Below, piece by piece: positions 21,002 to 44,544 of a stretch of 64,000 nucleotides of DNA (position 1 is its first letter; each line of letters begins with the position of its first letter). Location: sequence record KC690136. One strand, given 5' to 3'. The position numbers and the translations under genes are program-made. Under the pieces are notes generated by a model that had not been told where the DNA came from, did no database searches, and saw nothing but the letters and a program-made list of their open reading frames with translations. Source of the DNA: Escherichia phage JES2013.

Positions 21002-21349
21002 ATGTCAAAGATTAAATCGATATTAATGTGGGTAGCTGTTGTGGCTTTTATAGGGTACTGGGTTTGGGAAACTGAATTAAAAGATATCGGATATACCAGT
21101 CTTGAGAGCAAGGCGTGCATTGGCATAACCGATGCGTTCAGGCAAAACGCTATGGATCACGAATGTGTTGATGCAGATATAGATGAGAAACTGTCTAAGG
21201 ACAAAGATTTTTACCATGGGCATGCTTTGCTTGATAGTGGTGACACTGTAGAGTTCTGGTCGTGGTTCCGTGAAGATGGAACAATAAAAACAGCAGTAAA
21301 GATCTCTAACAAAGAGTTAATGCTGTTGCAGCAGAAGGAGGCTCAATGA
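21002..21349 (+). CDS. membrane-anchored hypothetical protein
   Basis: AGAGGTAGAGAGA RBS; N-terminal TM helix. Confidence 0.5.
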   Translation: MSKIKSILMWVAVVAFIGYWVWETELKDIGYTSLESKACIGITDAFRQNAMDHECVDADIDEKLSKDKDFYHGHALLDSGDTVEFWSWFREDGTIKTAVKISNKELMLLQQKEAQ

Positions 21350-29495: not shown

Positions 29496-30682
29496 CTGAA
29501 GAGGCAAACGTGCATAATTCCTGTGCATCGGAACGTATGAAACCTTGTTCACACTCTCATTTCCAGAGGAGATTTTATGAAGATAGAAATATTTGGTGGA
29601 GCTGACAACACTCGTGGCCTGATTTACCTTGAATTCGATGAATCATACCTACCAGAGGTGTTAAATATAGACTCTGTTGCGGAGGCTTTGGGAGTAAACC
29701 CTAAAGAACTCCACTCTTGTGCTGAGATCGATGGTTGGGAAGAGACCATGAACATTGATTTCAGTGAAGTAGAGGATGAACCGCTGGACTGACACACAAT
29801 TAGCTGCCCGGCTAAAGTGCTGGAAGCACCTATAACACATCTTTCAACTAAATTTCCCACCACAACAATCACTTACCTCCCATACATGACTGTTTGCTTG
29901 TTTAGTGAGCAGTCATGCCTTGACATTCTTGCCTATCCTGATAAAATTAAGTTCTTCTCTTTTCTTTTACCGAGTAATTCGGGTTTTCTGTTCTCTTCGG
30001 TTTGAAGGGGTATGGAGATACACCTGAGTGAACAGGGTGAACAACCGAACATTTGGCTATGGCATTAGCATGGCGAAGCGGACGGGTGACGAAAGAGGGG
30101 CCGGAGGACACCAGTCACTGCCATATGGTATATGGGTGATAACCTGAAGAGTCTGAATAAGTGTTTAAGTACCAGTCAGAGGAAAAGGTGAATGGTAGCC
30201 GAAGGGGGAGGGGGGTTTCTTGTATCTTTAATTTGTATATTATGTATACACTTGTAAACCAATCTCATTTGAATTTGTTTACCACACAAAGTGGATAGAG
30301 ACAAATATTACCTATTAAACTTGAATTATTTATAGAAAATACCACAACACTACTTAAGTCTTTGATTTTACACACAAATCCTGCAGATATTCACCCTCCA
30401 TATTTAACATACTTGTAACATATTCCATACTCTACCTGCCCGATCAATTCACCCAACTACATCCCCATATTTTCCCTGTCTGTACTACCCCTGCCCCGCC
30501 GGGAGTCCCGTCATATCTGGCTTTCCAGCAAATATCACACCCACAAATATCATTGCCTGAAGAGGGTTTCGTCCCATAATACATGCCTTACCTGAAGAGC
30601 GCTTCATATACCCCGTAAATTTTTTAATTGACCCCCTCCCCGCCGCCGGAGGGGTCGGCTTTTCCCACACAGACCTGAAGAG
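29496..30682. repeat. five dispersed copies of 9-mer CCTGAAGAG
   Basis: Exact copies at 29496, 30143, 30556, 30591, 30674. Confidence 0.5.
29577..29792 (+). CDS. small acidic protein
   Basis: GAGGAG RBS; MKIEIFGG start; last gene of the + block. Confidence 0.5.
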   Translation: MKIEIFGGADNTRGLIYLEFDESYLPEVLNIDSVAEALGVNPKELHSCAEIDGWEETMNIDFSEVEDEPLD

Positions 30683-31210
30683 TCAGCCAGAAATATCTGA
30701 ATGGACCCAATTCTGCCCTGTTATGAGCCGTAGCGACTGGAGTGCTGCCAGGCGGACGAAATGGGAATACTTCTCATTCTTATAACAATTCTCAAATATC
30801 GAGGCAGTGAGGCAAATTAATAGGTAAGGCCGTTCACATAGTGGCACAACATTTGCAGTCTATCTGATGTGGTTGAATGAGAATACCTATCATTGTGAGA
30901 ATAGTTATCATTACGGGCAATTTAACATAATACCCATTATGCGCACCACTGGCGATACATACAGGGATTGATAACATGAGTTACTGTTTACGCATATAAC
31001 AATTATATTTCTTATCATTTGTGTGGGATATAGTTAGCAGCCGATAGATTAGATATTGACCTGCGGACTTCTGACCGTCTAGACGTCTAAACGCCCACAC
31101 AACAAGGCTTATACATACATCGCTGAATGTAAACATGGCCGCAAAAATGCTACCATACAAGATTGTAAATTTTTCATGCAGCACTTGACAAAGAGGAGAA
31201 AAACTTGTCT

Positions 31211-31440
31211 GACACTTTAGACATACTGGTGACACAATATGACACTTTAGACTTAATTGACATGCCTGACTGTTTACGCTGTCACTATTCGCGCTATTAC
31301 TATTCACTCCCTTTACTGTTCACGCTCTTACTGTTTACATGCTTAATGGTTTACATGCTTAATAGACTGCATGTCTAATAGTTTACATAGCTAACTGTTC
31401 ACATACTTATCATTTACATGATTGACTGTTTACACAGAGA
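31211..31440. repeat. iteron-like array: GACACTTTAGAC x2, about 8 copies of TGTT(T/C)ACA, 16-bp tandem GTTTACATGCTTAAT
   Basis: Direct repeats read in sequence (31211-31222, 31241-31252; 31273-31435). Confidence 0.55.
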
Positions 31441-31447
31441 TGATAAG

Positions 31448-31731
31448 CCATGACATTCGTTTGCATGACAATAATTAACAAGATAACAATTGACAAGCTA
31501 ACAGCCAACAAGCTGACAATTAACTTGTTTACAATAGATGACATAATATAAAAGCAGGGCAACTATTAGAAGATCTATAGTTGCCTTGCTTGTTATGTCA
31601 TGATTAACTAAATACAAGGCAACTATGATCTGATTAATAGTTTGCAAACAAACTATCACGGGGGTGATGGTTACTGCTTTTATATTATGTCGCGACTCCG
31701 TCGCGCCATGCCATTCGTTTGCATAGTTGCC
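31448..31731. repeat. GGCAACTAT inverted/direct repeats and duplicated GCCATG(A/C)CATTCGTTTGCAT
   Basis: Palindrome GGCAACTAT-N10-ATAGTTGCC (31558-31586); further copies at 31618, 31723; 19-bp repeat at 31448-31466 and 31706-31724. Confidence 0.5.
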
Positions 31732-32340
31732 TTATTGTTACAGATAAAATAATTGTATTGTTAATTATTTCTTATCTTTCTATTAGTCATCTAATGATTC
31801 CAGTCAATATAGTAATGTACAGTAAACATTAGACGACTAAAGATTTATCTGCTTATAATAACTTACCGTGACAATTTCGGACTGTTTACGAAAAATGTTG
31901 GCACCTAAGCTGATTTATGTTATGCAGTTTACACGAATAATTATTTTATGCAGGTATTGACTATTCCATTATTCTATGGTTGGAATAAATACTTAGCAGA
32001 CTATAGAATGGTGAGCGTACGTAAATTCTGAGATCTGGCGGCTATAGTTATACTCGATTTTTCACGTAGAGCACGCTTTTGTGGTTATGTAAGTGTATGA
32101 CTTATAAAGATTTTTAGTTGTTGACAAGACACTGAAGATATGCATCAGGTTAAATTTTGTGCAATAGCTGCATTACGTGCAATTTTGGAAGGAAAAACGG
32201 GTAAAAATAGCCCTGCTACCACACAATGAAAAGTTATGCAATAGTTATTTTACATGTATATTTGTACAGTGTGTGGGGTTGATGGCTCGTCAATTATTCC
32301 ACTTGCCAGGTAGGGCCGTTTATGGTAGGGGGAAGATCAG

Positions 32341-32367
32341 ACAAAAAGAAAGGGGCCTAAGCCCCTT
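32341..32367 (-). terminator. intrinsic terminator ending the - strand block
   Basis: Minus strand: AAGGGGC-TTAG-GCCCCTT followed by TCTTTTTGT, just after stop of 32386-32805. Confidence 0.65.
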
Positions 32368-32385
32368 GATAATTCAGTTAAAAAA

Positions 32386-33274: not shown

Positions 33275-33547
33275 TTACTTATGGCGGCAGAATTCAAGCG
33301 TTTTTAATTGATAATCTTCCTCAGCCTGGAGTACGACCGCCTCGATCATTTCGTTGGCATTGTTAAAGCCATAACCTTTAGCGAAATCATCCGCGCCACC
33401 TTCGTGATCATGTTCTGCGTTCATCGCTTCCACAAAATGGAATTCCAAATTGTTGAGGTAGGGGCTTGATGTTCCGTCCTCTTTTTCGATGAGATCCCAA
33501 ATAGCATTAAAACGTGATTCTACTTCTTGATTAATCCAGCTTGACAC
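33275..33547 (-). CDS. hypothetical acidic protein
   Basis: Track ORF. Confidence 0.45.
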   Translation of the reverse strand: MSSWINQEVESRFNAIWDLIEKEDGTSSPYLNNLEFHFVEAMNAEHDHEGGADDFAKGYGFNNANEMIEAVVLQAEEDYQLKTLEFCRHK

Positions 33548-33758
33548 AGTGTTTTCCTCTCTTCTGGTTGTTGTGTGGGCACTTTTGCCCCTTCAAGATA
33601 AATGTTACCCCACCCCATGGCAGATGTCAACGGTTTTTATAGTTCTTATATGACAGGCAGGCCCGGTGATTGTCTCCCCCCGTCGCCAGGTGCCTGCCGT
33701 GAAACAAGTATAACAAAAAACAGGACCATTGCAAGCCCTGTTTTGTAGTTTATAAATA

Positions 33759-33950
33759 TTATATTTTTTCGCCTATGTAGTCCGGTCGGTTTTTCTCTGT
33801 CATGCGCTTTAGCAATTCTTGCATGTTGCTTATGGCTTGTAGTGTATCCCCTTCCAGGCTTGAATCGACATAATCAGGATCGTCTATGACCTTTCTATGA
33901 TTATGATAACGCAGTACCGCCAATACCTTTCTGACTTGTTCGATATTCAT
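33759..33950 (-). CDS. hypothetical small protein
   Basis: Track ORF. Confidence 0.4.
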   Translation of the reverse strand: MNIEQVRKVLAVLRYHNHRKVIDDPDYVDSSLEGDTLQAISNMQELLKRMTEKNRPDYIGEKI

Positions 33951-35709: not shown

Positions 35710-35765
35710 GATGATTTGCCTCTCTTTATTTTCATAATTGGGGGGCCTTTTCGGCCCCGCCAGGT

Positions 35766-41429: not shown

Positions 41430-41512
41430 AGCTTTTCCTCTGTGTTGGCGGGATGTTTCCCGCCTTTTGTGTCTAGTTTACTTGAATTTTGCAGCGTGTC
41501 AATAATTTTTTT

Positions 41513-41911
41513 TTATTCGTGGGCACATGTTACAATGTGCTTTTTATAGCCCAGGTGGGCAGCAAGTGCCGCCAAAAACTCATCTTCATAGATCCAGCCG
41601 TTGGCAGTGATCCCCATAGCATTTAATGCGCTCTCAAGTGCTGCGTTAGCTTTATCATAACCGTGACCGCTCGCCTTGCCGCCAGTATAACCGTACTTAT
41701 TGTTCTTGTTGTCGTGTATCCAAAAAACGCAGTAGTTAGTGTTACCGCTGGCGGCGGCATAGTACCGGATCTCCGCTACTTCGTGCAAATTATTATCATC
41801 GTCCAGGCCAACCAGATTATAAGCCTTGTAAAATCCACGATCACGGCGGCAGTTCTTGACATCAGAAAAAGAGAAGTCGGCATTGTCAAAATTAAAGGTT
41901 GTGGTTTTCAT
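41513..41911 (-). CDS. hypothetical protein
   Basis: Track ORF. Confidence 0.5.
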   Translation of the reverse strand: MKTTTFNFDNADFSFSDVKNCRRDRGFYKAYNLVGLDDDNNLHEVAEIRYYAAASGNTNYCVFWIHDNKNNKYGYTGGKASGHGYDKANAALESALNAMGITANGWIYEDEFLAALAAHLGYKKHIVTCAHE

Positions 41912-41975
41912 GATTTTATCCTCTTAGTGTCTTTTGTGATTTCAGTATATTTTGTGTCGGGGCGTATGTCAATAC

Positions 41976-42173
41976 TTATTTTTTATTAAACCAGTGATTG
42001 ATCTGACCTTTTGTCAGGGCGCAACGATTAAGCTGTTGCAGGGTATAGCTATGACCGCGACGAAATTTATAAAGGCCTTGCCCGTTGTTGATGGTTACAT
42101 CCACCAGGCAAACCACTTGATCGGTGACCACCTGGCGAGTGTTGCGACGTACTTTGATTCCGTATGCGTTCAT
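41976..42173 (-). CDS. hypothetical small protein
   Basis: Track ORF. Confidence 0.4.
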   Translation of the reverse strand: MNAYGIKVRRNTRQVVTDQVVCLVDVTINNGQGLYKFRRGHSYTLQQLNRCALTKGQINHWFNKK

Positions 42174-42251
42174 GATTTTTTATCCTCTCTGTTAATTAGT
42201 GTGGTGTTGTTCACCTTGCGAGGATAAGAATAACAAGAACTGTCCGAGCTG

Positions 42252-42413
42252 TCAACCATTAGTTAAAATTATTTTTGCCCCTGCCAGGTTAACCATCATT
42301 TTTTCGTACTCTTCTTTATGTTCCAACGCTCCCGCCATAGCCTTTTCAACCAGGGCGATAGCCTCAGCGTCATTAATAGCTACATTTTCCAGGGGGATCA
42401 TATTACCTTTCAT
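42252..42413 (-). CDS. hypothetical small protein (53 aa)
   Basis: GGAGGTAC RBS then ATG 42413. Confidence 0.4.
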   Translation of the reverse strand: MKGNMIPLENVAINDAEAIALVEKAMAGALEHKEEYEKMMVNLAGAKIILTNG

Positions 42414-42945
42414 TTTTGTACCTCCCCTTCAATTGTTACCTATCCTATAGCATAGGCCCACCAGGTTTACAAGCCTTCATTCTCTCCTGCCTGGTCAGTT
42501 AGGTCCTGCCAGGCTGGCCCCGCCAGGTTGCAGCGGTTAGCGCATCAGGTTAGAAAAATTTTTTGAAAAGTGTTGACAGCGGCCCCGCCAGGTGGCACAA
42601 TATACCTATCGAAAGGACGGCAGGCACCGGTGACGGGGGAGGCAACCACCGGGGATGGACGCTGCATAAAATGAGAACGGTTATCATTATCATTTAAAAA
42701 TTTATGCAAAAAATCCTTGCTTTCTTTGTCCTGTGTGATACTATAATAACAAGCCGGGGCAACAGGGGCCGGGAGACAATCACCGGGCCTGCCCGTTATT
42801 CTGCAAACGAGAATGATTATCATTCAAAATTCTAAATGAGAACTCCTCGCATTTAATAAATTTAATTAGCATGCTAATTACCCTCCGTAACAATTTCCTA
42901 TAAAACAGTATCCCATAAAATATTTCCATATAGAAATTTTAAAAA

Positions 42946-43387
42946 TCCATTTCTGAAAACGAAAAATCGATTTCGTCCCCAAAAATTTCAGGTCGAGATC
43001 CGGAACGATTTCCAGAAAATCCGATTTAGAAAACGAAAAACAGATCGAGTACTGAGAAATTTATCGAGAAAAATTTTCAGAAAATTCAATCTTTGAAACG
43101 AAAAACAGATCGAGTACCTGGAAAGCTGCACTGCAACTTCAAGATAGTGGTTAGATTATTACCATAAAAGGTCAAGGGTAAGTGGAGGAAGTTCTAGTAG
43201 AAGGATGTGAGCATGTGTGGGAAATCTATAATGGTGGCCTGGAATATGGTGCAAACGATAGGATGAGTTATTCAGCTTGTCGCGCCTACTCTGAAAAATC
43301 CATTTTAGTTTTCGATCCATTTTCTGATTTTCTAAGAATTTTAAAATATCCAGCCCGGTGAAATATCAAAAGGAGGAAATCCATTTT
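42946..43387. repeat. iteron-like repeats: ATCCATTT(T/C) x4 and 23-bp direct repeat GAAA(A)CGAAAAACAGATCGAGTAC x2 plus a partial copy
   Basis: Copies at 42946, 43298, 43316, 43379; 43029-43052 and 43095-43117; partial 42955-42971. Confidence 0.55.
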
Positions 43388-43429
43388 AGAAATCCCCCTT
43401 ATACTTGATATGCCAGGAATTTTCAAGTA

Positions 43430-43759
43430 TCAGTTGTCTTTGTTTTTAGGTTTGTACATGCGCAGAGGTATGGTCTTTGTAACATTCCATTTCCTCAACC
43501 CTTCCCAGCTCCAGTTGTGGGCGTGGTATCCGGTTATGCATGCACTACTGGAGTGATCGTAAGCATAAGAGAACGCTAAGCGCACCAGGTGGGGCCAGTC
43601 CTTCCATGGTTGTGGACCGTAAGCTTTTCTCCAACACCGACACAAACTAAATGTCTCAAGGATAGGAAGGATAACAAACCCATACACTGTCACCAAAATA
43701 GTCAGTGCAATGATTGTCAGGAACACATACCCTGCAGTTGAAATGATGATCTCTGTCAT
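43430..43759 (-). CDS. membrane protein
   Basis: N-terminal TM helix. Confidence 0.45.
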   Translation of the reverse strand: MTEIIISTAGYVFLTIIALTILVTVYGFVILPILETFSLCRCWRKAYGPQPWKDWPHLVRLAFSYAYDHSSSACITGYHAHNWSWEGLRKWNVTKTIPLRMYKPKNKDN

Positions 43760-43959
43760 TTGTCGTCCCCTTTCTTACGGATATAGATGTGAGAACCTGC
43801 CTGTATATAAATTTCTCGACCATCTTCTGCGAAGATGTGGAATACACGGTCACCTTCGTACTCAATACGAGATATCTTCATAATGGTCTTTCCACCTGGG
43901 ATACGGATCTCGTCCCCCACAGCGATGTTCCATGCAGATTTAAGCTTAAACATCTGCAC
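43756..43959 (-). CDS. hypothetical small protein
   Basis: Track ORF. Confidence 0.45.
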   Translation of the reverse strand: MQMFKLKSAWNIAVGDEIRIPGGKTIMKISRIEYEGDRVFHIFAEDGREIYIQAGSHIYIRKKGDDK

Positions 43960-44191
43960 CCTCCTTTGGGAACTTGAACTCTGGCATAGCCATATACGCT
44001 ACAACAGGGTTGTGATCAAAGTAGAACTGACCGTTAATTATCCCGGTTTTACTCACATAGTTACCAGATCCTGCAAGAACAACCTCGCAAGCTCCGAAAT
44101 CTACATTGCCATCCTCATCAGCCATGGCTACGATATACTTTCCTAGAGGCATGTTTTTAACGCCGTCTACAAATGTCCACCCTTTGTTCAT
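43946..44191 (-). CDS. hypothetical protein
   Basis: Track ORF. Confidence 0.45.
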   Translation of the reverse strand: MNKGWTFVDGVKNMPLGKYIVAMADEDGNVDFGACEVVLAGSGNYVSKTGIINGQFYFDHNPVVAYMAMPEFKFPKEGADV

Positions 44192-44211
44192 ACTTTATCT
44201 CCTGCACTTTC

Positions 44212-44544
44212 TTAAGGTAACCAGTAAACAATCTCGCCTTTCAGCTTCATGTCGTTTCCAACATAAATTTCCCAGCCATCCATCTTAGCAACTGTAGGCC
44301 CAAAGTCATCCGCACCCCTTACCTCTTTCCAGGCTCCGTAGTCAGGTTGCCAGATATAGAATCCACCTTCTTTGTCCCATGCTCCGTACACTACGTTTAA
44401 CAGGTTTCCCATTGCAACAATGGTGGGCCGTGGGAATAATACATCTACAGATGCGCCACAATTTCGGGTATCTTTTAAGTTGCAATCCCAAAAGATGTCT
44501 GCCAGTGTGGCGGCGATAGCTTTACGTCTTTCCAATGTTACCAT
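44212..44544 (-). CDS. hypothetical protein
   Basis: Track ORF. Confidence 0.45.
   Translation of the reverse strand: MVTLERRKAIAATLADIFWDCNLKDTRNCGASVDVLFPRPTIVAMGNLLNVVYGAWDKEGGFYIWQPDYGAWKEVRGADDFGPTVAKMDGWEIYVGNDMKLKGEIVYWLP

What the first reader, a model, noticed from the sequence alone, without database searches (positions are those of the whole stretch)
42450..43430. Second ORF-free repeat region inside the minus-strand block
About 1 kb without credible ORFs. It contains GGCCCCGCCAGGT (42526, 42581; a third copy at 35753), a + strand TTGACA (42573) pointing antisense into the region, ATCCATTT(T/C) at 42946, 43298, 43316 and 43379, and a 23-bp direct repeat GAAA(A)CGAAAAACAGATCGAGTAC (43029, 43095). 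It may be a regulatory hub, a secondary origin or an antisense RNA locus.
Basis: partly seen in the sequence, partly recalled or inferred. Interest (0 to 1): 0.6.

Follow-up and report, generated by a model that had tools for sequence, protein, structure and literature searches.

The report
Conserved non-coding Fur-box RNA locus
This gene-free kilobase of an rV5-like E. coli phage is a conserved non-coding control locus, with two host-type promoters facing against the neighbouring genes, each followed by a copy of a new ~50-base conserved element and by palindromes that look like binding sites for the host iron sensor Fur, then iteron-like repeats; nobody appears to have described it.

Summary
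The window is an rV5-like Vequintavirus. Within that group most of the locus is at least as conserved as the flanking genes.

Its core, about 42756-42860, is the only part that still aligns in other genera and in a second subfamily, where it is unannotated.

Anatomy on the + strand, inside a minus-strand gene block:
- A ~50-nt element, then a Fur-box-type palindrome.
- Promoter P2, a second copy of the element, then two more palindromes.
- An 18-bp palindrome.
- Three 62-nt direct repeats with a GATCGAGTAC core.
- A variable spacer.
- ATCCATTTY and AAATATC boxes.

A third copy of the element, with its own promoter, lies at 33647-33702 (-).

The palindromes are the window's best matches to the Fur consensus. 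A matrix built from them picks out the Fur-regulated ent/fep promoters of E. coli.

No Rfam family, paper or E. coli homolog matches. Function is inferred. The likeliest reading is an early, host-transcribed non-coding unit gated by Fur. An origin of replication, a Fur decoy and a pure RNA role remain open.

The parts
42457..42595 (.). The copy at 42581 is the spacer of P1.
   Evidence: the densest CCWGG stretch of the window (190-nt scan) is 42341-42530, which overlaps the left part of this cluster. 42450-42500 is the least conserved part of the locus in rV5-like phages, at 64-71%.
42553..42601 (+). Promoter P1: UP-like GAAAAATTTTTTGAAAA, -35 TTGACA (42573-42578), 17-nt GC-rich spacer, TG-extended -10 CACAAT (42596-42601). 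Predicted start is near 42608.
   Evidence: 10/12 match, TG present. 99% conserved in rV5-like phages. A promoter with a GC-rich spacer occupies the same slot in other genera. The start site is inferred.
42616..42663 (+). Element copy A, a diverged paralog with core GAGGCAACCACC.
   Evidence: Profile R1 scores it 30 bits, E = 3e-8. Self-BLAST matches it to the copy at 33.7 kb.
42667..42697 (.). Fur-box-type palindromes A: two overlapping sites around TGAGAACGGTTATCA / ATCATTATCATT.
   Evidence: Best match in the window to GATAATGATAATCATTATC, at 16/19 and 15/19. PWM score 26.9.
42696..42747 (+). Promoter P2: A/T-rich UP-like stretch, -35 TTGCTT (42717-42722), TG-extended -10 TACTAT (42739-42744) overlapping TATAAT (42742-42747). 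Predicted start is near 42751.
   Evidence: Read from the sequence. It falls below the threshold of the simple scan. 97-99% conserved in rV5-like phages. A CTTGCW...TATWMT promoter sits at the same position in every genus examined.
42753..42803 (+). Element copy B, with core GAGACAATCACC at 42773-42784. This is the most widely conserved piece of the locus.
   Evidence: 72-88% identity in other genera, where it is unannotated; 48.5 bits; the outer stem is 84% paired with 2 compensatory pairs, while the inner stem is unsupported in a fixed register.
42803..42854 (.). Fur-box-type palindromes B (42803-42829) and B' (42834-42854).
   Evidence: 15/19 to the consensus; PWM scores 27.8 and 22.5. The spacing from the element core is fixed in all related loci.
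42863..42880 (.). Perfect 18-bp palindrome TAATTAGCATGCTAATTA.
   Evidence: Self-BLAST and the sequence itself. It is specific to the rV5 group.
42924..43124 (+). Three direct repeats of about 62 nt (42924, 42998, 43063), 32% GC, with core GATCGAGTAC at 43043 and 43108 and a degenerate first copy. They are iteron-like.
   Evidence: The core occurs nowhere else in the window. Three same-orientation copies spaced 63-67 and 74-78 bp are found in Seunavirus, Mydovirus and Certrevirus loci.
43125..43290 (.). Variable purine-rich spacer.
   Evidence: 73-83% identity among rV5-like phages, the lowest of the right half. Its small ORFs are broken in relatives.
43291..43432 (.). Box cluster: ATCCATTTT at 43298, 43315 and 43379; AAATATC at 43344 and 43361; an 8-bp inverted repeat ATACTTGA...TCAAGTAT at 43401-43432.
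   Evidence: 43300-43350 is 100% identical in 10 rV5-like phages. CCATTTY and AAATATCA boxes recur at the same end of the locus in other genera.
33647..33734 (-). Third copy of the module, outside the finding's coordinates: promoter TTGCAA (33734-33729) with TG-extended TATACT (33712-33707), then element copy C (33702-33647).
   Evidence: 49 bits. It is conserved in other genera, where a Fur-type box follows it.

Best explanation
This is a conserved non-coding early control locus of rV5-like phages and their relatives.

Proposed mechanism. Host sigma-70 RNA polymerase starts at two tandem promoters, P1 and P2. Both point rightward, against the surrounding minus-strand genes. Each transcript begins with a copy of a ~50-nt conserved element whose core is GAGACAAWCACC. 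A palindrome of the Fur-box type follows each element. These palindromes lie about +55 to +80 from the upstream start site, and their centres lie about -62 to -72 from the start of the next promoter.

I propose that iron-loaded host Fur binds these palindromes. Bound Fur would gate how far transcription from one promoter runs, and how active the next promoter is. That would couple early non-coding transcription into the AT-rich, iteron-like repeat array to the host's iron state.

What is shown and what is inferred:
- Shown: conservation, promoter consensus, paralogy of the element, the Fur-box character of the palindromes, and absence of coding potential.
- Inferred: that the RNAs are made, that Fur binds, and what the output is.
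For: Conservation:
- Among 10 rV5-like phages, 42550-43075 is 92-100% identical, against 87-97% for the flanking CDS.
- Only about 42756-42860 still aligns in Seunavirus, Mydovirus, Certrevirus, Serratia, Erwinia and Pantoea phages and in Stephanstirmvirinae, and it is unannotated there.
- The order promoter, element, palindromes, repeats, boxes is the same in all of them.

The element:
- It has exactly three copies in the window, each 5-10 nt downstream of a good -10.
- The third locus is also conserved across genera, and there too a Fur-type box follows it.

The palindromes as Fur boxes:
- The only three positions in 128,000 that match the Fur consensus at 15/19 or better lie at 42673 and 42809.
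- A matrix built only from phage palindromes places its top 7 hits in 26 kb of E. coli K-12 inside the three Fur-regulated promoter regions fepA-fes, fepD-entS and fepB-entC.
- The two half-sites vary independently. At position 7 the G:T ratio is 30:11, and 11 of 21 boxes are non-complementary there. That fits a protein site rather than an RNA stem.

Coding potential: there is no coding signal.
Against: - No transcript, 5' end or Fur-binding data exist for any of these phages.
- No intrinsic terminator follows either element on the + strand.
- P2 has a weak -35 and was missed by the simple promoter scan.
- Structural support for the element is modest. The covariation score is 0.163 against 0.119 for shuffles (5/500 as high), the inner helix is 60% paired in a fixed register, and single-sequence z-scores range from -0.2 to -3.2.
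- The phage palindromes resemble each other (27-32 bits) far more than they resemble native E. coli Fur sites (12 bits or less). They also prefer G where Fur's consensus has T. A phage-encoded binder is therefore possible.
- Classical Fur operators overlap the -35/-10 region. These do not.
Confidence: 0.4

Rival explanations
1. Origin of replication, possibly secondary. Transcription from P1 and P2 would open or prime the AT-rich region. There, three iteron-like repeats and the short box arrays would bind a phage initiator, as at the T7 primary origin or at the lambda and T4 transcription-activated origins.
For: - Two tandem promoters point into a 32%-GC stretch.
- That stretch holds three same-orientation repeats whose core is unique to the locus and whose spacing (63-67 and 74-78 bp) is conserved across genera.
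- Further conserved box arrays (CCATTTY, AAATATCA) follow.
- In Stephanstirmvirinae the repeats differ in sequence while the architecture is kept, as expected if iterons co-evolve with an initiator.
- The rV5 authors could not locate an origin (PMC3606486).
Against: - No DnaA or IHF consensus occurs in the locus.
- GATC is not enriched: 4 per kb here against 5.6 per kb in the window.
- GC skew does not change here.
- A repeat spacing of about 70 bp is unusual for iterons.
- No initiator gene is adjacent.
- The 2.6-kb non-coding region at 29.8-32.4 kb sits at the strand switch and carries many CTGTTYAC repeats, so it looks the better origin candidate.
- This reading does not explain the third element copy at 33.7 kb.
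Confidence: 0.2
2. Fur decoy. The palindrome arrays, multiplied by phage genome replication, would titrate host Fur. That would derepress iron uptake and other Fur-repressed genes to the phage's benefit. On this view the promoters and elements are secondary.
For: - The boxes are of Fur type.
- They occur in clusters of 1-5 per non-coding island.
- Several islands per genome carry them, including 30759, 30875 and 30893 in this window and separate clusters in Mydovirus loci.
- From general knowledge, multicopy Fur boxes derepress the Fur regulon. That is the basis of the Fur titration assay.
Against: - The first box sits at a fixed distance from the element core in every genus, and it sits between promoters. 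Both point to local cis regulation rather than mere copy number.
- PVP-SE1 has a single box at this locus.
- No expression data exist.
Confidence: 0.15
3. The elements are the functional product. They could be promoter-proximal RNAs that act on RNA polymerase in cis, as put- or nut-like antitermination signals. Or they could act in trans as small regulatory RNAs, with the conserved core as a seed. The palindromes would then serve another protein or only define the RNA's end.
For: - Three paralogous copies each start within 10 nt of a predicted start site.
- A 12-nt invariant core is flanked by GC-rich arms of differing sequence.
- The outer stem has 2 compensatory pairs.
- More G-U pairs than A-C mismatches are seen by eye on the + strand, which favours that strand as the RNA.
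- In other genera P1 drives a different, well-supported pseudoknotted RNA at the same slot: 96.5% paired, with a covariation score of 0.215 against 0.067 for shuffles (0/500 as high).
Against: - There is no terminator.
- Structure statistics for the element are weak.
- No complementary target is found in the window above chance.
- No genes lie downstream of P1 or P2 for an antiterminator to serve.
- There is no Rfam match.
Confidence: 0.15
4. A decaying remnant of lost genes, with chance repeats and no function.
For: The left edge (42450-42500) and the spacer (43125-43290) are poorly conserved. Other genera carry a small + strand CDS upstream of P1 that rV5-like phages lack.
Against: Most of the locus is as conserved as, or more conserved than, the neighbouring genes. 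Its core survives across two subfamilies where everything around it has diverged.
Confidence: 0.03

Closest known systems
Fur boxes, the operators of the enterobacterial ferric uptake regulator (19-bp consensus GATAATGATAATCATTATC, or 7-1-7 TGATAATnATTATCA)
   Same: - AT-rich palindrome with the same half-site, AATGA(G/T)AAT.
- 15-16 of 19 matches to the consensus.
- A matrix built from the phage sites recovers the E. coli ent/fep Fur operators.
- The sites come in tandem or overlapping arrays.
   Different: - They lie in a virulent phage, in non-coding DNA.
- They sit between tandem promoters rather than over a -35/-10.
- They prefer G at a position where the Fur consensus has T.
- They are far more uniform than native sites.
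- Binding is untested.
Transcription-activated phage origins (T7 primary origin with tandem promoters and an AT-rich region; lambda ori iterons; T4 oriF/oriG)
   Same: Tandem promoters point into an AT-rich stretch that carries direct repeats, inside the early region.
   Different: - The promoters are host-type.
- Repeat spacing is about 70 bp.
- There are no host initiator sites and no skew signal.
- No linked initiator gene is present.
- Replication initiation has never been mapped in this phage group.
Promoter-proximal antitermination RNAs (HK022 putL/putR; lambda and P22 nut boxB)
   Same: A short conserved element lies at the very 5' end of early transcripts, in several copies per genome. 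Its core contains GACAA, the loop sequence of P22 boxB as I recall it.
   Different: - The core is 9-13 nt, not a pentaloop.
- The closing helix is not in a fixed register.
- No N-like protein or downstream operon is evident for copies A and B.
- The resemblance comes from memory and was not tested.
Pseudo-ToxI ncRNA of the related Pectobacterium phage phiTE (PMC3475682)
   Same: It is a non-coding RNA locus in a Vequintavirinae phage, built from direct repeats and expressed during infection.
   Different: - It lies at a different genomic place, between the tRNAs and the terminase.
- Its repeats are 36 nt.
- No ToxI-like sequence was found in the phiTE copy of this locus.

Membership tests
Fur box (Fur operator) | Match to the 19-bp consensus / 7-1-7 inverted repeat | tested here: met
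   Matches of 16/19, 15/19 and 15/19 at 42673 and 42809 are the only three positions at 15 or better in the window. The half-site consensus is AAATGA(G/T)AAT.
Fur box (Fur operator) | Same sequence class as experimentally known Fur operators of the host | tested here: met
   The phage-derived matrix places its top 7 hits in 26 kb of E. coli K-12 inside the fepA-fes, fepD-entS and fepB-entC promoter regions. That these regions are Fur-regulated is established knowledge.
Fur box (Fur operator) | Overlaps the -35/-10 of the repressed promoter | tested here: not met
   The boxes lie about +55 to +80 from the P1/P2 start sites, and their centres lie about -62 to -72 from the next promoter's start.
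Fur box (Fur operator) | Bound by Fur-Fe2+ | not testable with these tools
   Needs EMSA or footprinting, ChIP, or a Fur titration assay.
Iteron-type / transcription-activated replication origin | Several direct repeats in one orientation next to an AT-rich stretch | tested here: met
   Three 62-nt repeats with a conserved core, at 32% GC.
Iteron-type / transcription-activated replication origin | Host factor sites (DnaA, IHF) or a Dam-site cluster | tested here: not met
   No DnaA or IHF consensus. GATC density is below the window average.
Iteron-type / transcription-activated replication origin | Strand-composition switch at the site | tested here: not met
   Cumulative GC skew turns at about 29 kb, not here.
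Iteron-type / transcription-activated replication origin | Replication initiates there | not testable with these tools
   Needs marker-frequency analysis or 2D gels.
Trans-acting bacterial or phage small RNA gene | Own promoter | tested here: met
   P1, P2 and the copy-C promoter are conserved across genera.
Trans-acting bacterial or phage small RNA gene | Rho-independent terminator at the 3' end | tested here: not met
   No + strand terminator-like site in 41500-44500.
Trans-acting bacterial or phage small RNA gene | Conserved secondary structure supported by covariation | tested here: inconclusive
   The outer stem is 84% paired with 2 compensatory pairs. The inner stem is 60% paired. The overall score is 0.163 against 0.119 for shuffles, 5/500 as high.
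Any Rfam 15 family | Covariance-model match | tested here: not met
   No hit at gathering score in the window. Nothing credible at E up to 10 in the locus or E up to 1 in five related loci.
Protein-coding gene (rV5 ORF198/ORF199 as annotated in some records) | Conserved reading frame with codon-position bias | tested here: not met
   Variable sites fall 8:11:11 by codon position. Relatives carry frameshifts and stops. The ORF is absent in other genera.

The most novel reading that the evidence does not exclude
A whole lineage of virulent enterobacterial phages (Vequintavirinae and Stephanstirmvirinae) has wired the host iron sensor Fur into conserved non-coding early loci. The recurring module is a host promoter, a new ~50-nt 5' RNA element and a Fur box, present in two or three copies per genome. 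It would act as an iron-dependent switch on early non-coding transcription, on replication start, or as a Fur sponge. Infection would then be tuned to host iron status.
Probability: 0.25. Interest if true: 0.8.

Novelty: new variant of a known kind. Interest (0 to 1): 0.6.

Why it matters
rV5-like, PVP-SE1-like and phi92-like phages are widely used as therapy and biocontrol candidates, yet how they control early events, and where they start replication, is unknown.

This locus is one of the most conserved non-coding stretches in the group. Some GenBank records wrongly annotate it as small hypothetical proteins.

If Fur really binds here, it would be a clear case of a strictly lytic phage reading a host metal sensor through its own non-coding DNA. 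That would give a testable link between iron limitation, which is typical of infection sites, and phage performance.

The ~50-nt element, and the pseudoknotted RNA that occupies the P1 slot in other genera, are candidates for new RNA families.

Tried and rejected
- **Rfam.** Gathering and permissive searches on the window, the locus and five related loci found nothing usable. There are no tRNA or tmRNA genes.
- **Pseudo-ToxI.** The phiTE ncRNA lies elsewhere in that genome, and no ToxI-like sequence occurs in the phiTE copy of this locus.
- **Coding potential of ORF198, ORF199 and the + strand ORFs.** Rejected.
- **A Fur-controlled minus-strand promoter across box B** (TTGAAT, N18, CAGAAT). 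Considered by eye and dropped. The -11 A is not kept in Mydovirus, L012 or phiTE, and the copy-C loci of CR3 and SSBI34 have no such promoter.
- **Palindromes as RNA hairpins or terminators.** Rejected because half-site changes are not compensatory and no U-tract follows.
- **A fixed inner helix for the element.** Not supported. RNAalifold on MAFFT alignments was uninformative.
- **Targets of the conserved core in the window.** Matches are at chance level. The E. coli genome could not be searched for a 12-mer with these tools.
- **A host origin for the element.** No match in 5,426 E. coli genomes. The only plasmid hit is a mislabelled rV5-like phage.
- **The left part, 42440-42560.** It folds no better than shuffles on either strand.
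- **Small proteins next to the locus in this window and in other genera.** They have no known function.
- **Literature.** The searches found no description of the locus. The PVP-SE1 genome paper is not held.
- **Metagenome scan.** It added only two new variants and four false positives.

Full report
**What the window is.** The region 42200-43500 is 100% identical to Escherichia coli O157 typing phage 4 (KP869102, Vequintavirus). It is 88-98% identical to about 110 other rV5-like phages. All flanking genes are small, of unknown function, and on the minus strand. GC skew turns at about 29 kb, not here.

**Check of the observation.**
- GGCCCCGCCAGGT occurs three times, at 42516, 42581 and 35753, against none in shuffles.
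- TTGACA at 42573 is the -35 of a 10/12 sigma-70 match with a TG-extended -10.
- All four ATCCATTTY copies in the window lie within 440 bp of this locus.
- The 23-bp repeat is part of a 3 x 62-nt family.

The region is non-coding. KP869102 annotates nothing there. The 92-aa minus ORF that rV5 and some other records annotate shows no codon-position bias (8:11:11 variable sites), changes frame at its end in relatives, and does not exist in other genera. The remaining small ORFs are broken in relatives.

**Conservation.** Among ten rV5-like sequences, 42550-43075 is 92-100% identical and 43300-43350 is 100% identical. The flanking coding sequence is 87-97% identical. Only 42450-42500 (64-71%) and 43125-43300 (73-83%) are relaxed.

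Sensitive BLAST against 50,697 phage records shows that only about 42756-42860 still aligns outside the genus, at 72-88% identity. The hits are Seunavirus (PVP-SE1), Mydovirus, Certrevirus, phages of Serratia, Erwinia, Pantoea, Pectobacterium and Enterobacter, and Stephanstirmvirinae (Phapecoctavirus, Justusliebigvirus). The stretch is almost always unannotated there.

**Anatomy.** I read the homologous gene-free regions of these phages side by side. They share one architecture, always on the strand opposite to the neighbouring genes:

1. Promoter P1, with an A/T-rich UP-like stretch and a GC-rich spacer.
2. A structured RNA slot.
3. Promoter P2.
4. A ~50-nt element with the invariant core GAGACAAWCACC.
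5. One to five AT-rich palindromes. The first lies at a fixed distance from the element, and the fixed-spacing pattern recovered every locus.
6. In several genera a third promoter, followed by three direct repeats of 65-90 bp.
7. A variable stretch.
8. CCATTTY and AAATATCA boxes.

In the window these parts are:
- P1 at 42553-42601, element copy A at 42616-42663, palindromes at 42667-42697.
- P2 at 42696-47, element copy B at 42753-42803, palindromes at 42803-42829 and 42834-42854.
- An 18-bp perfect palindrome at 42863-42880.
- Repeats at 42924-43124, a spacer, and boxes at 43291-43432.

**A paralogous element.** Self-comparison revealed a third copy on the minus strand at 33647-33702. It has its own TG-extended promoter, and the element begins at the predicted start site. 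A sequence profile built from 19 members finds exactly these three copies in 64 kb, at 49, 48.5 and 30 bits; these three were among the 19 sequences the profile was built from, so the informative part is that nothing else scores.

Copy A is closer to the 33.7-kb copy than to copy B. In rV5-like phages the slot after P1 therefore holds a duplicate of this element. In the other genera that slot holds a different RNA, described below. The 33.7-kb locus is itself conserved across genera. In Salmonella phage SSBI34 and Cronobacter phage CR3 it too is followed by a palindrome of the same type. So the module promoter, element, palindrome is recurrent.

**Is the element a structured RNA?** The evidence is modest.
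- An outer stem of 6-8 bp is 84% paired, with two pairs showing compensatory changes.
- The inner helix that would close the conserved core has different sequences in different genera (CCGG/CCGG, UCG/CGA, GCG/CGC, GGGG/CCCC) but no common register, and is only 60% paired when fixed.
- The overall covariation score is 0.163 against 0.119 for shuffles, with 5 of 500 shuffles as high.
- Single-sequence folding z-scores range from -0.2 to -3.2.
- G-U pairs outnumber A-C mismatches on the + strand by eye, which favours that strand.
- No intrinsic terminator follows.

**The palindromes are of the Fur-box type.** I scanned both strands of the window with the E. coli Fur consensus GATAATGATAATCATTATC, taken from established knowledge. 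The only three positions matching at 15/19 or better lie at 42673 (16 and 15) and 42809 (15), which is right after copies A and B.

I then built a matrix from 17 phage palindromes alone (consensus AAATGAGAATcATTCTCATTT) and scanned 26 kb of E. coli K-12 around the enterobactin genes. Its top seven hits all fall in the three divergent promoter regions known to be Fur-repressed: fepA-fes, fepD-entS and fepB-entC.

The two halves of the palindromes vary independently. At half-site position 7 the G:T ratio is 30:11, and 11 of 21 boxes are non-complementary there. They therefore behave as protein sites rather than RNA stems.

Three caveats apply:
- The phage boxes resemble each other much more (27-32 bits) than they resemble native Fur sites (12 bits or less).
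- They prefer G where the Fur consensus has T, although the aerobactin operator, as I recall it, also has G there.
- They do not overlap a -35/-10. They lie about +55 to +80 from the upstream start, with centres about -62 to -72 from the next promoter's start.

Further boxes of this type lie in the other non-coding region of the window, at 30759, 30875 and 30893. Separate clusters occur in Mydovirus loci.

**The right half.**
- The repeat core GATCGAG(A/T)(A/C)C occurs only twice in the window, both here. It occurs three times in one orientation, spaced 63-67 and 74-78 bp, in Seunavirus, Mydovirus and Certrevirus loci.
- Phapecoctavirus has different repeats at the same place.
- The stretch is 32% GC.
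- There are no DnaA or IHF consensus sites.
- GATC is not enriched.

**What is known.** I found nothing that describes this locus.
- Rfam 15 has no match.
- The rV5 genome paper reports that skew analysis did not locate an origin. It mentions only a different ORF-free region, rV5 104013-106618, which corresponds to window coordinates of about 29.8-32.4 kb.
- The one published ncRNA of this phage group, pseudo-ToxI of phiTE, lies elsewhere.
- There is no homolog in 5,426 E. coli genomes.

**Interpretation.** The firm part is that this is a conserved, non-coding, multi-part control locus built from host-type promoters, a new paralogous 5' element, Fur-box-type sites and iteron-like repeats.

The mechanism I think most likely is an early, host-transcribed non-coding unit whose extent or promoter use is gated by Fur bound between the tandem promoters. 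I give it a confidence of about 0.4. It rests on the constant coupling of element and box in two paralogous loci across two subfamilies.

The rivals are a transcription-activated origin (0.2), a Fur decoy (0.15), and an RNA-only function such as antitermination or a trans-acting RNA (0.15). These are not mutually exclusive, and none can be decided without experiments.

Noticed in passing
L005:1340-1450, L007:1330-1440, L008:1320-1430, L003:2390-2480 (other genera; absent from the window): In Seunavirus, Mydovirus, Certrevirus and Phapecoctavirus, P1 drives a different ~95-nt RNA: GACGCCACCCCACGGCGAAAAGGCGGGGCUAAC, a variable hairpin, then GGAAGGUGGAUCGCCGGUAG. A hairpin, a loop-to-downstream pseudoknot and a covarying second hairpin are well supported: 96.5% paired, with a covariation score of 0.215 against 0.067 for shuffles (0/500 as high) and slid controls at 47% or less. 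There is no Rfam match. Raoultella phage Ro1 (L020) has two copies. It is a candidate new RNA family.
   Followed up: partly
window 29775-32380: This is the large ORF-free region noted in the rV5 paper, lying at the strand and GC-skew switch. It carries Fur-type palindromes (30759, 30875, 30893), two AAATATCA boxes (30530, 30545), and 7 of the window's 10 + strand CTGTTYAC repeats between 30984 and 31882. It shares motif types with the locus studied here and looks the better candidate for the main origin.
   Followed up: partly
window 33629-33600 (minus strand): Directly after element copy C lies a second promoter (TTGACA, N17, TAACAT), followed by a GC-rich hairpin (GGGGCAAAAGUGCCC) ahead of the 90-aa gene 33547..33275. 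This is another tandem-promoter arrangement.
   Followed up: no
window 42444-42472 (minus strand): A possible weak promoter for the 53-aa gene 42413..42252: TTGTAA, N17, TATAGG. GC-rich CCWGG-containing spacers recur in several promoters of these phages. One example is TTGCAT-CCTGGCGGGGATCGTG-TACTAT in PVP-SE1.
   Followed up: no
L005:1097-1279, L003:2075-2341, L006:1028-1294: Other genera carry a small + strand gene with its own promoter just upstream of P1. It is either a DUF7170 protein of 60 aa or an 88-aa phrog_19316 protein, both of unknown function. rV5-like phages lack it and have the CCWGG-rich stretch there instead.
   Followed up: partly
whole window against KP869102.1: The window is not collinear with the identical GenBank record. 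Window 42414 maps to record position 134069, but window 33560-33790 maps to record 21070-21300. The window would also run past the record's end, and the record is labelled a partial genome. This probably reflects a permuted or differently ordered assembly.
   Followed up: no
search results: Seventeen records named 'Campylobacter phage' (MG0656xx) are 95-97% identical to this E. coli phage locus and carry no annotation. Their host labels look doubtful. One 137.6-kb 'E. coli plasmid' (CP057073) is an rV5-like phage genome.
   Followed up: no
L005-L008, 20-45 nt upstream of the P2 -35: A direct repeat, TGTAAAGAnnTGTAAAGA, precedes P2 in all non-rV5 genera. In rV5-like phages a Fur-type palindrome occupies the corresponding place. 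It may be another protein site, or an UP-like element.
   Followed up: no
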